Source: the human T2T-CHM13v2.0 reference genome, Homo sapiens. From it: a stretch of DNA of 64,000 nt. The DNA is taken from assembly GCF_009914755.1 (NCBI RefSeq), contig NC_060936.1; one strand, given 5' to 3'. Within the stretch, counting starts at the first letter, position 1. Every line of letters starts with the position of its first letter. Below, piece by piece: positions 5,217-47,805 of this stretch. The position numbers were made by a program, and so were the translations under genes. The notes beneath the pieces were generated by a model. That model was not told the origin of the DNA. It worked only from the letters and a program-made list of their open reading frames with translations, and did not search any database.

Positions 5217-5593
<377 letters not shown>

Positions 5594-6208
5594 AAGACCC
5601 TTTTTTAGCTTCATGAAGAGCAGAGAAAAATGCAGGTGTTTTAAGAAGATTGATATGGCCCTAGGTTCTCAATATTTTTAGCTTTCTGGCCCTCTGGTGT
5701 CATGAAGTCACAGTAAAGATAACAGAAACTACCTACTTTCAGCATATGCTGATTTTCACAGAGGATTGTGAGAAATGGACTGCAAAAGTAAAAAGGGAAA
5801 ATTCCAAGCAGGAATGAAAAAAATATTTGAATCTATGCATGTTTTTCAAGTCAGGAGGTAAACAAGGGCTCCTTTTTACCCCTAGAGGCCCCACAGGCAC
5901 CTTGAGTTTACTGTGCTCCAGAGTGTTGGTTTTCTCCTTAGTACCTGTCCTTCCTTTTACATTCTGTGATATGGTGAATGACATCACCATCTACGCACTT
6001 AGGCCCAAATCCAAGGAGCAATTCTCTCTACCTCTTCTTCCTCCTGACCCTACAATCAGTGACTATATTGTAAATTCTGCTTCCTGAATATCTCTCTAGT
6101 CTATGTCCTCACCTTCTTATTTACTATGTGAGTCTTGGTGAAAACTCTCATTCTCTCTACCCCAGATCGAACAGTTCCTTTAAATGGATGGGTATTTCTC
6201 AAAGATAA

Positions 6209-15757: not shown

Positions 15758-16075
15758 AGGTGGCTCATGCCTGTAATCCCAGCACTTTGGGAAGCTGAGG
15801 CTAGTGGATCACTGGAGGTCAGGAGTTTGAGATCAGCATGGCCAACATGGTGAAATCCCATCTCTACTAAAAACACAAAAATTAGCTGGGCATGGTGGTG
15901 GACACCAGTAATCCCAGCTACTCAGGAGGCTGAGGCAGGAGTATCGGCTTAAGCCCAGGAGGCAGAGGTTGCAATGAGCAGAGATCGTGCGGCAGACGTT
16001 GCAATGAGCCGAGATCGTGCCACTGTACTCCAGCCTGGGTGACAGAGCGAGACTCCATCTCAAAAAAAAAAAAAA
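15758..16075 (+). mobile_element. AluS with 30-bp internal duplication
   Basis: GGCAGA.GTTGCAATGAGC.GAGATCGTGC twice at 15961-16020. Confidence 0.9.
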
Positions 16076-16179
16076 GAGAGAGAGAGAGACACCACAGGCT
16101 TAAGAAAGTAAAGAGAAGTCTTCCTCTTTCTCCTCTCTCTATGGTAGCTGAAAAAAAAAAAAGAGAGAGTGGGGAAAGA

Positions 16180-30465: not shown

Positions 30466-32520
30466 TATAAATATTCTAGTGATTCAAGAAAGGCACTCAA
30501 TTTTTTAATTAAATGTGTGTCACATATGCTCCTTTGTTTGGTACTTAGATGGAAGTTCAAAGTTCATTCTTAAATCTGAGACCTTGGGAATATAATCTTT
30601 TAAATTATCTCCTATATCTGTTCTCAAAATAAATCAACAAAATAATTTTGGGTCTTTCTTGAATGCAAAACCGAAAGCACTTTTTAAAGAGTGAGGAGGA
30701 TCTGTTAGATGTTAAAGCACACCTGTTTAAGGTTGGCCATAATGTACCTTTGCTCAATCTCATAACCAAGTCTGACTTCCAGAATCCCTTAGTTTGTAAC
30801 ACCGCTGTCAACAGATGAACCCAGCCCTGCTCCTAGCCCTGTTCTTCCTTTTTGTTGGTTCCTAAGAAGCATATATTTTGTTTATAGTCCCATATTTCCC
30901 TATCCTTCATTCTGGATATAATTTTTCCACAAGGAAAAAGTATTTGTAGTATAAAGGACTGAATTAAGATCCATGGAATTTGCAAGCTTCTCTCAACTGA
31001 ATTGATTCAAGTCATGAAACCATATACAAGTCACAGCCTAAGTCTCAGTTTTGTATTTGAAAAATGGTGATACCTCCCCATCTTACCCTACAAAGTTATG
31101 GTGAATATAATAAATTAGTGTAAGTAAAAGACCTATGTGCATTACAAGATACTATACGAATATGAAACTAGCGCTTCCAGCTCAGGGTGAACACTACTAG
31201 TTTAAAATCCATTCCCAATCTTTTAAGTATGGAAACCCTCATGTGCCAGTTACTGTATTTTTACTGTATTTTACTGTAGTGATTGAGAAAATATAAGTTT
31301 TCATTTGGATTTCCATTCCCTCACAATAATTCCAAGGTCTCTCAAAGTGTCCTGGTCAGATACTTAGAATCACTGCCTAAATCAATAAGGAGATTAACCA
31401 AAGTTGGCCTCAACACACTGGGCTGCAGAATTTTTTCTTGTTTTCTGATTCCTCTAAACCAACTACTTTCCTTTCCTAAAGGTTTTCTATCACTTGCTAG
31501 GACTCCTGGTCCCCCTTCTTCTTTGCTGCTTTCTGGGATACTAGCCCATCTGTCACTTCTTCTGAAACTACTGATTATAAATTCCTAACAGTTATTCATA
31601 GTTAAACCTATATAAGTATACACCTCAAAAGAAGAAAACAAAATTGATGTCACACATTGAGATGGAAAGATCTGATTCCAAAGTACTGGTAAAAAGTACA
31701 AAAATACTCCCCTCCCCAGTCCTTGAGTTATTAATCATCTTGAGGTTGCAGTACTTAGACATCTGTTGGATAAAAGAACAGATTAGAGGGAGGCAAGGAA
31801 ATCTGCCAAGACCTGAGGCAGATGCTTCCTCTTAGACTTGGACCTCGTAGCAATGCGACATGTTCTGACTCTTTTCTCAGATCTAAGTTTTAACATCGCA
31901 TTTCTCCAATGTATTGGAACAGCTCCAGTAGAGGTAGAACTTGAACATAAGGAGTCCCAGGAATTATTGGGGCTACTTCATTCATTTATTCAAAAGAATT
32001 AATTGAGAGCCTACTCATTTAGCCTTGAATTATTCTAGGGCTGGAGATTTAGAAATAAAAGACATGCATTCAGGTGGGCAGGAACATCATTCATGACAGT
32101 GACTGAGTAAAAAGTGTTGAAAAAGAAATCAGCCCATGGTTTAAGCTCAAAGAACCAGCTGACTACAAGTCTTGTGCCTATGACTGGGCCTATGAATAAC
32201 AGGTGGACACAGCAGCAGTCTCCTTCAGCACTGCTTGGTGTGTCCCTTGATACGGCTCTTCATTCCACTGACATGGAAGCAACAGGATTGATCATTATTT
32301 TCTAGAGCATATTTACCAATTAAAGCCATTGGAAACTGGAAAAAAGGATTATATATGCATATCAACCTTCAAATAGCATACATGTGAGTTTGGTGTGATC
32401 TACCAACCTCTCCTTAGTAGAACAGATGGAAGGCTAGGCTAGTCTAGCTAGTTCTGTTCCAGATCTTCTTTTCTTCATTATTCCAATTCATTTTTGGCCT
32501 TTTAAGAATTACACAGACTT

Positions 32521-35353
<2,833 letters not shown>

Positions 35354-35489
35354 AAAACAAAACAAGAATTACACAGACTTTTACAATTAAGAATAAAATC
35401 TATAGATATTTTTGAAAGAAAAGAAAGAGAGAAAGAGGAAGGAAGGAAGGAAGGAGAGAAGAGAGAGAAGAGAGAGAAGAGAGAAGAAA

Positions 35490-45156: not shown

Positions 45157-46946
45157 AATAGAAAGCCAAATCATGAGTGAACTCCCATTCACAAGTGCTA
45201 CTAAGAGAATAAAATACCTAGGAATGCAACTTACAAGGGATGTGAAGGACCTCTTCAAGGAGAACTACAAACCACTGCTCAAGGAAATAAGAGAGGATAC
45301 AAACAAATGGAAAAACATTCCATGCTCATGGATAGAAAGAATCAACACCGTGAAAATGGCCATACTGCCGAAAATAATTTATAGATTCCACGCTATCCCC
45401 ATCAAACTACCACTGACTTTCTTCACAGAATTGGAAAAAACTACTTTAAACTTCATATGGAACCAAAAAAGAGCCCACATAGCCAAGACAATCCTAGGCA
45501 AGAAGAGCAAAGCTGGAGGCATCACGCTACCTGACTTCAAACTACACTACAAGGCCACAGTAACCAAAACAGCATGGTACTGGTACCAAAACAGATATAT
45601 AGACCAATGGAACAGAACAGAGTCCTCAGAAATAACACCACACATCTACAACTATCTGATCTTTGAGAAACCTGACACACACAAGCAATGAAGAAAAGAT
45701 TCCCTATTTAATAAATGGTGTTGGGAAAATTGGCTAGCCATACGCAGAAAACTGAAACTGGACCCCTTCCTTACACCTTATACAAAAGTCAACTCAAGAT
45801 GGATCAAAGAGTTAAACGTAAGACCTAGGACCATAAAAATCCTAGAAGAAAACCTAGGCAATACCATTCAGGACACGGGCATGGACAAAGACTTCACGTT
45901 TAAAACACCGAAAGCAATGGCAACAAAAGCCAAAATTCACAAATAGGATCTACCTAAAGAGCTTCTGCACAGCAAAAGAAACTATCATCAGAATGAATAG
46001 GCAACCTACAGAATGGGAGAAAATTTTTGCAATCTATCCATCTGACAAAGGGCTAATATCCAGAATCTACAAAGAACTTACTTAAACAAATTTACAAGAA
46101 AAAAACAAACAGCCCCATCCAAAAGTGGGCAAAGTATATGAACAGACACTTCTCAAAAGAAGACATTTATGCAGCCAACAGACACGTGAAAAAATGCTCA
46201 TCATCACTGGTCATTAGAGAAATGCAAATCAAAACCACAATGAGATACCATCTCAGGTCAGTTAGAATGGCAATCATTAAAAAGTCAGGAAACAACAGAT
46301 GATGGAGAGGTTGTGGAAAAATAGGAATGCTTTTACACTGTTTGTGAGAATGTAAATTAGTTCAACCATTGTGAAAGACAGTGTGGTGATTCCTCAAGGA
46401 TCTAGAACTAGAAATACCATTTGACCCAGCAATCCTATTACTGGGCATAAACCCAAAGGATTATAAATCATTCTATGATAAAGACACATGCACACATATG
46501 TTTACTGCAGCACTATTCACAATAGCAAAGACTTGGAACCAATCTAAACATCCATCAATGATAGGCTGGATTAAGAAAATGTGGCACATACACACCATGG
46601 AATACTATGCAGCCATTAAAAAAGGATGAGTTCATGTCCTTTGCAGGGACATGGATGAAGCTGGAAACCATCATTCTCAGCAAACTATCACAAGATCAGA
46701 AAACCAAACACTGCGTGTTCTCACTTATAAGTGGGAGTTGAATAACGAGAACACACGGACACAGGGAGGGGAACATCACACACTGTGCCCTATCGGAGGG
46801 TGGGGGGCTAGGGGAGAGATAACGTTAGGAGAAATACCTAATGTAGGTGACGAGTTGATGGGTGCAGCAAACCACATGGCACGTGTATACCTATGTAACA
46901 AAACTGCACGTTCTGCACATGTAAGTCAGAACTTAAAGTATAATTT
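45157..46946 (+). mobile_element. 5'-truncated L1PA (PA7/8-like), degenerate ORF2
   Basis: [17 protein letters not shown]... ORF2 fragment with stops; TSD GAGAAA.AG.AAAACCTA (45139-45156 / 47419-47436). Confidence 0.93.
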
Positions 46947-46960
46947 AAAAAAAAGAGAGA

Positions 46961-47406
46961 TCCTTTGTAGGGACATGGATGAAATTGGAAACCATCATTC
47001 TCAGTAAACTATCGCAAGAACAAAAAACCAAACACCGCATATTCTCACTCATAGGTGGGAATTGAACAATGAGATCACATGGACACAGGAAGGGGAATAT
47101 CACACTCTGGGGACTGTGGTGGGGTTGGGGGAGGGGGGAGGGATAGCATTGGGAGATATACCTAATGCTAGATGACACATTAGTGGGTGCAGCGCACCAG
47201 CATGGCACATGTATACATATGTAACTAACCTGCACAATGTGCACATGTACCCTAAAACTTAGAGTATAATAAAAAAAAAAAAAAAAAAAAGAAACTGGAT
47301 ATAGCTGGATTTTAAATCAAAACCTGTGAATAAAATTAACAAATCGTGTTTTAACTTAAGCCAATTAAAAATAATATGTTAAAAAAAAAATAAAATAAAA
47401 TAAAAT
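46961..47406 (+). mobile_element. L1HS-Ta 3' fragment with 90-bp 3' transduction
   Basis: ACA at 47177-47179 and G at 47262 (Ta diagnostics), polyA, unique 47291-47380, second A tail, TSD AAAAAAAAGAGAGA (46947-46960 / 47407-47420). Confidence 0.92.
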
Positions 47407-47456
47407 AAAAAAAAGAGAGAGAAATAGAAAAACCTACAAACATATTGGAGATTTAA

Positions 47457-47805
<349 letters not shown>

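What the first reader, a model, noticed from the sequence alone, without database searches (positions are those of the whole stretch)
46947..47436. L1HS-Ta insertion carrying a 90-bp 3' transduction, nested in an older L1 tail
Seen: a ~310-bp L1 3' end with ACA (47177-47179) and G (47262), then polyA, then 90 bp of non-L1 sequence (47291-47380; AATAAA at 47329, ATTAAA at 47364), then a second A-rich tail. A 14-bp TSD, AAAAAAAAGAGAGA, brackets the whole unit. Known: these nucleotides define the active human-specific Ta subfamily, and a double tail inside one TSD is the hallmark of 3' transduction. Inference: the 90-bp tag barcodes a full-length source L1 elsewhere, and this insertion may be polymorphic.
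Basis: partly seen in the sequence, partly recalled or inferred. Interest (0 to 1): 0.8.

Follow-up and report, generated by a model that had tools for sequence, protein, structure and literature searches.

The report
Truncated young L1 carrying chr6 tag
This is an ordinary short copy of the youngest human LINE-1 family that dragged 90 bases of chromosome 6 along when it jumped, and the parent element is missing from its chromosome 6 home in this genome.

Summary
A 310-bp 5'-truncated L1HS-Ta 3' end (46961-47270) is followed by 20 A (47271-47290) and 90 bp of non-L1 DNA (47291-47380). An A-rich tail follows (47381-47406). The unit lies inside a perfect 14-bp target-site duplication (46947-46960, 47407-47420), in the A-tail of an older L1.

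New here: the 90 bp has exactly one other copy in this genome. It is contig 6:95101570-95101659, 89 of 90 identical, within single-copy DNA. No L1 lies next to it. Homology starts at an L1-endonuclease-like site (TT|AGAA). It ends 11 nt after an ATTAAA signal, where the chr12 copy turns into poly(A).

This is a textbook L1 3' transduction. The source L1 never reached fixation: CHM13 carries the empty source site.

In the 1,019-genome long-read pangenome, one backbone node spans chr12:14057030-14077949, with no variant bubble over the insertion.

I could not establish whether the chr6 source L1 still segregates in people. This is an ordinary member of a well-known class, of low interest.

The parts
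46637..46946 (+). 3' end of the older host L1 (it continues upstream). It ends ...AGTATAATTT, just before its own A-rich tail.
   Evidence: 251 of 308 aligned columns are identical to the L1HS part; 324-bp period, 80% matches. It has A where the young copy has the diagnostic G, and GAG where the young copy has ACA.
46947..46960 (+). 5' copy of the target-site duplication AAAAAAAAGAGAGA. It is the start of the host L1's A-tail. The target reads TT|AAAA.
   Evidence: The last A (46960) is also the L1HS base before TCCTTTG, a 1-nt microhomology.
46961..47270 (+). 5'-truncated L1HS-Ta: the last ~310 nt, comprising the end of ORF2 and the 3' UTR. ACA at 47177-47179, G at 47262.
   Evidence: identical to 2 copies and 1 mismatch from 27 of the 29 copies compared. 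The usual difference is T (here) against C at 47126, a CpG site. The start lies 216 nt upstream of ACA.
47271..47290 (+). Internal poly(A) of 20 A. I infer that it is the copied genomic tail of the source L1.
   Evidence: A-run 47271-47290, length 20.
47291..47380 (+). Transduced 90-nt tag from contig 6:95101570-95101659. Each boundary is ambiguous by one A.
   Evidence: two matches in the whole genome, 100% (self) and 99%; 89 of 90 identical, G at 47360 against A on contig 6. The stretch from 47303 on is unmasked in NCBI's repeat file (hub note).
47329..47334 (+). AATAAA inside the tag. It was bypassed in this event.
47364..47369 (+). ATTAAA, the signal probably used. The tag ends 11 nt after it. 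On contig 6 a GT/T-rich stretch (GTGTTATTTTAGTTTTTC) follows.
47381..47406 (+). Terminal A-rich tail: A10 then (TAAAA)3 T. It is absent from contig 6.
47407..47420 (+). 3' copy of the target-site duplication AAAAAAAAGAGAGA. The rest of the host L1's degenerate tail follows (GAAATAGAAAAA...).
   Evidence: empty-site model reads ...ataattt aaaaaaaagagaga gaaatagaaaaacc....

Best explanation
A single L1 retrotransposition event by target-primed reverse transcription produced the whole 446-bp unit.

1. A full-length Ta-subfamily L1 once sat on the + strand of contig 6, directly upstream of position 95101570.
2. Its transcript read through the L1's own weak poly(A) signal and through an AATAAA 39 nt into the flank. 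It was cleaved and polyadenylated about 11 nt after an ATTAAA, 90 nt into the flank.
3. L1 endonuclease nicked the chr12 target at TT|AAAA, in the A-tail of an older L1.
4. Reverse transcription copied the new tail, the 90-nt tag, the source's 20-A genomic tail and only the last 310 nt of L1 before it stopped (5' truncation). The 5' end was joined at a 1-nt microhomology.
5. Repair produced the 14-bp target-site duplication.

The copy holds about 35 codons of ORF2 and the 3' UTR, so it is dead on arrival and has no evident function.

The source L1 is absent from this assembly, which carries the ancestral empty site. The source therefore never became fixed. It is either still segregating in people or has been lost by drift.

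Shown: the anatomy, the unique second copy, the empty site, and the near-identity to other young L1s. Inferred: that an L1 stood at the chr6 site, the read-through, and the order of steps.
For: Anatomy and TSD:
- Anatomy read directly and counted.
- TSD 14-mer: 4 matches in the window, 0.00 expected from 100 shuffles.
- The target reads ATAATTT|AAAAAAAA, which is TT|AAAA.

Subfamily and age of the L1 part:
- 40 of 706 first-look candidates were scored, and all were 310-nt full-length matches at about 100%.
- Of the 29 loci compared base by base, 2 are identical and 27 differ at one base. Of those 27, 23 have C and 1 has A at 47126; the other 3 (L013, L024, L025) share the T and differ elsewhere.
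- ACA at L1 positions 5,929-5,931 is the 'Ta' criterion used in PMC12350158 (Methods passage seen).

The tag and its source site:
- The tag has 2 candidates and 2 matches in 3.1 Gb: itself and C6:95101570-95101659 at 99%.
- The 810 bp after it and the 601 bp before it on contig 6 each match only themselves.
- The 1,500 bp upstream on contig 6 is non-L1.
- Homology begins at ...TTATTTA|GAAACTGG, an endonuclease-like TT|AGAA, and ends at ...ATATGTT(A). There contig 6 continues CAAAGTG and chr12 turns to poly(A), 11 nt after ATTAAA.

General background (passages of PMC13009371):
- About 25% of L1 insertions carry 3' transductions.
- 248 of 349 (71%) were shorter than 100 bp.
- 274 of 349 transduction endpoints had a poly(A) signal within the 10-30 bp window upstream.
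Against: - The defining partner, a full-length L1 directly 5' of the tag at the source locus, is not present in the only genome I could search. I found no report of one:
  - Text searches gave nothing relevant.
  - The supplements of PMC7058536, as far as held, list only 6q16.3 at hg19 102.8 Mb.
  - The supplements of PMC13009371 have no 6q15 or 6q16 source.
  - The MELT supplements gave no hit in 11 of 15 files searched.
- The cytoband name and the hg19/hg38 positions used in those searches are my own rough guesses, so these blanks are weak.
- The TSD is low-complexity, and the same 14-mer occurs twice more in the window.
- A shorter alternative duplication (AAAAAAAAGA, before the L1 and at the A20/tag junction) exists. 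It would need 4 unexplained bases (GAGA) at the 5' junction.
Confidence: 0.88

Rival explanations
1. Template-switch chimera. L1 reverse transcriptase primed on a short polyadenylated transcript from the contig 6 locus and copied its last 90 nt. It then jumped to the poly(A) tail of an ordinary L1 mRNA and copied 310 nt of it. No L1 ever stood at the contig 6 site.
For: - The contig 6 site is empty in this assembly.
- A usable ATTAAA with a GT/T-rich downstream element lies at the tag's end, so a local transcript could end there.
- Chimeric retrocopies made by template switching are described (recalled, not checked in a call).
Against: - The tag's 5' end falls exactly on an endonuclease-like TT|AGAA site. 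That is expected if it is the start of a source L1's target-site duplication and is a coincidence otherwise.
- The junction is a clean 20-A run directly after the complete L1 3' end, as in standard partnered transductions. These carry the conformation labels '...POLYA+TD+POLYA' in Supplementary Table 18 of PMC12350158.
- No transcript is known to me at the site.
Confidence: 0.07
2. Two independent insertions. A 90-nt orphan retrocopy, or orphan transduction, landed first in the old L1's tail. A solo L1HS later landed immediately 5' of it.
For: - A 10-bp repeat, AAAAAAAAGA, can be read before the L1 (46947-46956) and across the A20/tag junction.
- Orphan transductions exist: 48 were reported in PMC12350158 (passage seen).
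Against: - It needs a second hit at the very base where the first insert begins.
- It leaves GAGA (46957-46960) unexplained.
- It leaves the L1HS without a target-site duplication of its own beyond A-rich sequence.
- The perfect 14-bp repeat brackets the whole unit.
Confidence: 0.03
3. Chance resemblance or assembly artefact. The 90 bp is ordinary local sequence and the repeats are coincidental.
For: The flanking repeat is low-complexity and recurs elsewhere in the window.
Against: The 90 bp is 89 of 90 identical to a single-copy site on another chromosome. The homology starts and stops exactly at the two A-runs. The flanks on contig 6 are unique.
Confidence: 0.01

Closest known systems
L1 3' transduction ('partnered' transduction; Moran 1999, Goodier 2000 and Pickeral 2000 are recalled, and are cited in the reference lists seen)
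   Same: The L1 3' end, first poly(A), unique flank, second poly(A), a single target-site duplication and a TT|AAAA target. The flank ends 11 nt after a poly(A) signal. Its length is under 100 bp, like 71% of the transductions in PMC13009371.
   Different: The source L1 is not present at the source locus in this assembly. Only the empty allele is seen, so the parent is inferred.
L1HS Ta subfamily (ACA at 5,929-5,931, as used in PMC12350158)
   Same: The ACA triplet, G at 47262, and 309-310 of 310 identity to the 29 other young copies compared.
   Different: It is truncated at about L1 position 5,713. The Ta-0/Ta-1 positions (5,535 and 5,538) are missing, and the copy cannot move. It carries T at a CpG (47126) where 23 of the 29 compared copies have C.
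Transduction families traced to polymorphic, non-reference source L1s (for example the 208 source L1s of PMC12350158 and the 38 of PMC5668948)
   Same: A unique tag links a daughter to one source site, and the source is not fixed in the population.
   Different: Those studies trace polymorphic daughters. Here the daughter looks fixed or nearly so (no graph bubble), and only one daughter with this tag exists in this genome.
Template-switch chimeric retrocopies (recalled)
   Same: Two unrelated RNA-derived parts inside one target-site duplication.
   Different: Here the parts are in the order, and joined by the poly(A), that read-through transcription predicts. The tag starts at an endonuclease-like site.

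Membership tests
L1 3' transduction | Complete L1 3' end followed by a poly(A) run | tested here: met
   46961-47270, then 20 A.
L1 3' transduction | Non-L1 segment after the first tail, itself followed by a second poly(A) tail | tested here: met
   47291-47380, then 47381-47406. The second tail is absent at the contig 6 copy.
L1 3' transduction | One target-site duplication bracketing the whole unit, at an L1 endonuclease-type target | tested here: met
   A 14-bp exact repeat at 46947-46960 and 47407-47420, with target TT|AAAA. Caveat: the repeat is low-complexity.
L1 3' transduction | The segment maps to a unique locus elsewhere in the genome | tested here: met
   One other copy, C6:95101570-95101659, 89 of 90 identical, with single-copy flanks.
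L1 3' transduction | A poly(A) signal 10-30 nt before the end of the segment at the source locus | tested here: met
   ATTAAA ends 11 nt before the end of homology, and a GT/T-rich stretch follows on contig 6.
L1 3' transduction | A full-length L1 in sense orientation directly 5' of the segment at the source locus | tested here: not met
   No L1 in the 1,500 bp upstream in this assembly, and the 601 bp upstream are single-copy. This is expected if the source is polymorphic or lost. Other human genomes could not be searched, and the insertion rows for chr6 in PMC12350158 Table 18 are not held.
L1HS Ta subfamily | ACA at L1 positions 5,929-5,931 (pre-Ta has ACG) | tested here: met
   47177-47179 = ACA. 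The criterion is quoted from PMC12350158 Methods. One compared copy, L013, has ACG.
   G at 47262. No mismatch at this column in any of the 29 compared copies. The host L1 has A at the aligned column.
L1HS Ta subfamily | Ta-0 versus Ta-1 bases at 5,535 and 5,538 | not testable with these tools
   The copy starts about 216 nt before ACA, at about position 5,713, so these positions are absent.
L1HS Ta subfamily | Human-specific: empty orthologous site in chimpanzee and other apes | not testable with these tools
   No ape genome is held. This is inferred only from subfamily and near-identity.

The most novel reading that the evidence does not exclude
The contig 6 site (95101569/70, + strand) marks a retrotransposition-competent Ta L1 that is absent from CHM13. 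It may still segregate at low frequency in living people and may not be catalogued as a source element. The 90-nt tag, together with the G/A difference at 47360 that may mark the source haplotype, would then be a ready barcode. It could be used to find that allele and any further germline or tumour daughters.
Probability: 0.15. Interest if true: 0.3.

Novelty: new member of a known kind. Interest (0 to 1): 0.15.

Why it matters
It matters little beyond bookkeeping. It is a clean, fully resolved example of a short L1 3' transduction whose parent site can be named to the base. It also shows a daughter that outlived its parent: the daughter is present, and apparently not variable, in over a thousand genomes, while the parent never became fixed. 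If the parent still segregates, the tag identifies one more active L1 lineage. If it does not, this is a small fossil record of a lost active element. The copy is intergenic and truncated, with no sign of function.

Tried and rejected
- Further daughters of the same source: the 90-nt tag finds only itself and the source site. The 810 nt further downstream on contig 6 find only themselves. No second daughter is seen in this genome. The search skips very common words and scores only the best candidates.
- A published source L1 at the contig 6 site: text searches gave nothing relevant.
  - '6q16' with 'transduction' and 'source element': 0 papers.
  - '6q16' with 'LINE-1' and 'transduction': 2 irrelevant papers.
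  - '6q16.1' with 'retrotransposition': 5 irrelevant papers.
  - A 28-base stretch of the tag: 0 papers.
- Supplements searched:
  - PMC7058536: only 6q16.3 (file cut when stored).
  - PMC13009371: no 6q15 or 6q16 source.
  - PMC5668948: number prefixes 943-948 gave no genomic hit in 11 of 15 files; 4 files were not searched.
  - PMC12350158: no '95100', '95101' or '95102'. The insertion rows stop at chr2 and Tables 19 and 20 are not held.
- Supplements that could not be read: PMC13192797 and PMC9311842 were too large. PMC156586 and PMC8026704 are not held. Any of these may list the site.
- Node-number reasoning for the contig 6 site was undecided. There are 52 backbone nodes between chr6:94766246 and 95159612.
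- Naming the host L1 subfamily was not possible, because no repeat library is on hand.
- The T at 47126 as a lineage marker was rejected as evidence. It is a CpG site, and the 29 compared copies are the ones most like the query.

Full report
**Observation.**
- An older L1 3' end runs to 46946 and ends ...AGTATAATTT.
- The 14-mer AAAAAAAAGAGAGA follows at 46947-46960.
- A young L1 3' end covers 46961-47270, with ACA at 47177-47179 and G at 47262.
- A pure run of 20 A covers 47271-47290.
- Ninety bases of 24% G+C non-L1 sequence cover 47291-47380, with AATAAA at 47329-47334 and ATTAAA at 47364-47369.
- An A-rich tail (A10, then TAAAA repeats) covers 47381-47406.
- The same 14-mer recurs at 47407-47420.
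- Degenerate A-rich sequence follows (GAAATAGAAAAACC...), which reads as the rest of the old L1's tail.

Removing 46961-47420 restores a plausible old-L1 tail (empty-site model).

The 14-mer has 4 exact matches in the window against 0.00 expected in 100 shuffles. The two other matches, at 16068 and 16155, lie in or near A/GA-rich runs beside an Alu tail. Natural A-tails therefore make such words more often than shuffles suggest. From two unrelated copies in 64 kb, I estimate a chance copy within about 150 bp at roughly 0.5%.

**The L1 part.** A whole-genome search with 46961-47270 scored 40 of 706 first-look candidates. All were full-length matches at about 100%. Base-by-base comparison with the 29 other loci fetched gave these results:
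- 2 are identical (L005, L007).
- 27 differ at one base. In 23 the difference is C, and in one it is A, at 47126, where the window has T. This is a CpG-to-TpG change.
- Three others (L013, L024, L025) share the T and differ elsewhere. L013 has ACG instead of ACA.

These 29 are the copies most like the query, so the share with T is not a population figure.

ACA at L1 positions 5,929-5,931 is the Ta criterion given in the Methods of PMC12350158 (passage seen). That the G at 47262 is diagnostic is recalled. In the data, none of the 29 young copies differs there, and the host L1 has A.

The copy starts 216 nt before ACA, at about L1 position 5,713. It holds only the end of ORF2 and the 3' UTR, and it lacks the Ta-0/Ta-1 positions.

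Twenty-eight of the 29 compared copies read TTCATA|TCCTTTG (L013 reads TTCATG). The A at 46960 is therefore shared by target and L1, a 1-nt microhomology at the 5' junction.

The host L1 segment 46637-46946 is 251 of 308 aligned columns identical to the young copy (80%). It is a much older primate-type L1. I could not name its subfamily.

**The 90 bases.** A search of the window's own 3.1-Gb genome found two candidates and two matches: the window itself and contig 6:95101570-95101659 on the + strand, at 99%. In register the two are 89 of 90 identical, with G at 47360 against A on contig 6.

On contig 6 the segment lies in ordinary unique DNA. The 601 bases before it and the 810 after it each match only themselves in the genome. 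The 1,500 bases I read upstream contain no L1.

Homology begins at ...CACTTTTATTTA|GAAACTGG. It ends at ...AATAATATGTT(A), where contig 6 continues CAAAGTGTTATTTTAGTTTTTC and chr12 turns into poly(A).

The left boundary, read as TT|AGAA, is a common variant of the L1 endonuclease target. The list of variants is recalled. The right boundary lies 11 nt after ATTAAA and before a GT/T-rich stretch, which is the layout of a working cleavage and polyadenylation site.

**Mechanism.** The simplest account is a single retrotransposition.
1. A full-length Ta L1 stood in sense orientation directly before contig 6:95101570.
2. Its transcript ran past its own signal and past the first AATAAA, and was polyadenylated after the ATTAAA.
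3. L1 endonuclease nicked chr12 at TT|AAAA in the old L1's tail.
4. Reverse transcription copied the new tail, the tag, the source's 20-A genomic tail and 310 nt of L1, then stopped.
5. Joining and repair gave the 14-bp duplication.

This is the standard 'partnered' 3' transduction. Passages of PMC13009371 state three relevant figures: about 25% of L1 insertions carry one, 248 of 349 were under 100 bp, and 274 of 349 endpoints had a poly(A) signal 10-30 bp upstream.

The anatomy, the unique second copy and the empty source site are shown. The L1 at the source site, and hence the read-through, are inferred.

**The source L1.** This assembly has the empty site, and precise loss of an L1 is very rare (established knowledge). 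The source L1 was therefore never fixed. It is still segregating or it has been lost. I could not decide which.
- Text searches gave nothing relevant.
- The supplements of PMC7058536, as far as held, list only a 6q16.3 source at hg19 102.8 Mb.
- The supplements of PMC13009371 list no 6q15 or 6q16 source.
- MELT's supplements gave no genomic hit in the 11 of 15 files searched.

The cytoband and the hg19/hg38 positions used in these searches are my own rough conversions, so the blanks carry little weight.

The two resources in CHM13 coordinates that would settle the question were out of reach. The insertion rows of Table 18 in PMC12350158 are cut at chr2, and Tables 19 and 20 are not held. File S1 of PMC13192797 is too large. 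Graph node numbers leave 52 backbone nodes between the two nearest listed variants on chr6, which decides nothing.

**Is the chr12 insertion polymorphic?** The evidence I could reach says no.

In the held part of Supplementary Tables 13 and 18 of PMC12350158, the complex, deletion and chr12 insertion rows are present. No row lies at chr12:14058xxx-14059xxx. The class is called there: 'partnered' deletion rows exist.

The variant names also carry graph nodes. The insertion at 14057030 ends in node s526465, and the insertion at 14077949 starts from node s526465. One backbone node therefore spans the interval that holds the L1HS (14058961-14059420). No bubble of 50 bp or more exists there in the graph of 44 assembled and 966 long-read samples (graph description seen).

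This reading of the node names is my inference. Very rare empty alleles could have been filtered out.

**Rivals.**
- A template-switch chimera needs no L1 at the source site. It makes the endonuclease-like left boundary and the clean 20-A junction coincidences. I give it 0.07.
- Two separate insertions would need a second hit at the exact first base of the first insert, and would leave GAGA unexplained. I give this 0.03.
- Chance is excluded by the 89-of-90 match bounded exactly by the two A-runs.

**Verdict.** The tag has one second copy, at a single-copy site on contig 6 that is empty in this genome. The expectation of a full-length L1HS next to it is not met in this assembly. The suggestion of polymorphism at chr12 is not supported. 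The feature is an ordinary member of a well-known class, so interest is low.

Noticed in passing
window ~32835-35352 (masked stretch 32515-35372): The SVA here is polymorphic in people. [quoted passage not shown] Table 13 gives an AFR Fst of 0.278 and marks it multi-allelic, with nested insertions at chr12:14045369 and 14046375.
   Followed up: partly
window ~44120, ~44928, ~45030 (chr12:14056120, 14056928, 14057030): Three small population-differentiated structural variants lie 2-3 kb upstream of the finding, inside the masked L1 region: two 'COMPLEX' of 69 and 75 bp, and one 58-bp insertion, with AFR Fst of 0.20-0.31 (Table 13 of PMC12350158). I did not look at the sequence.
   Followed up: no
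window 16068-16081 and 16155-16168: The same 14-mer, AAAAAAAAGAGAGA, occurs twice more, 87 bp apart. The first follows an Alu tail, (A)n(GA)n. The second lies in another A/GA run. They may bracket a small insert or may be coincidental low-complexity sequence.
   Followed up: partly
window 47479-47528: A perfect (TGTTT)10 microsatellite heads an antisense Alu that starts at about 47529. It is probably the Alu's modified A-tail read on the other strand.
   Followed up: no
window 47126: T occurs at a CpG of the L1 3' UTR G-rich tract, where 23 of 29 compared young copies have C. Five other copies share the T: L005, L007, L013, L024 and L025 (L013 is ACG/pre-Ta-like). This could be recurrent CpG decay or a minor lineage marker.
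   Followed up: partly
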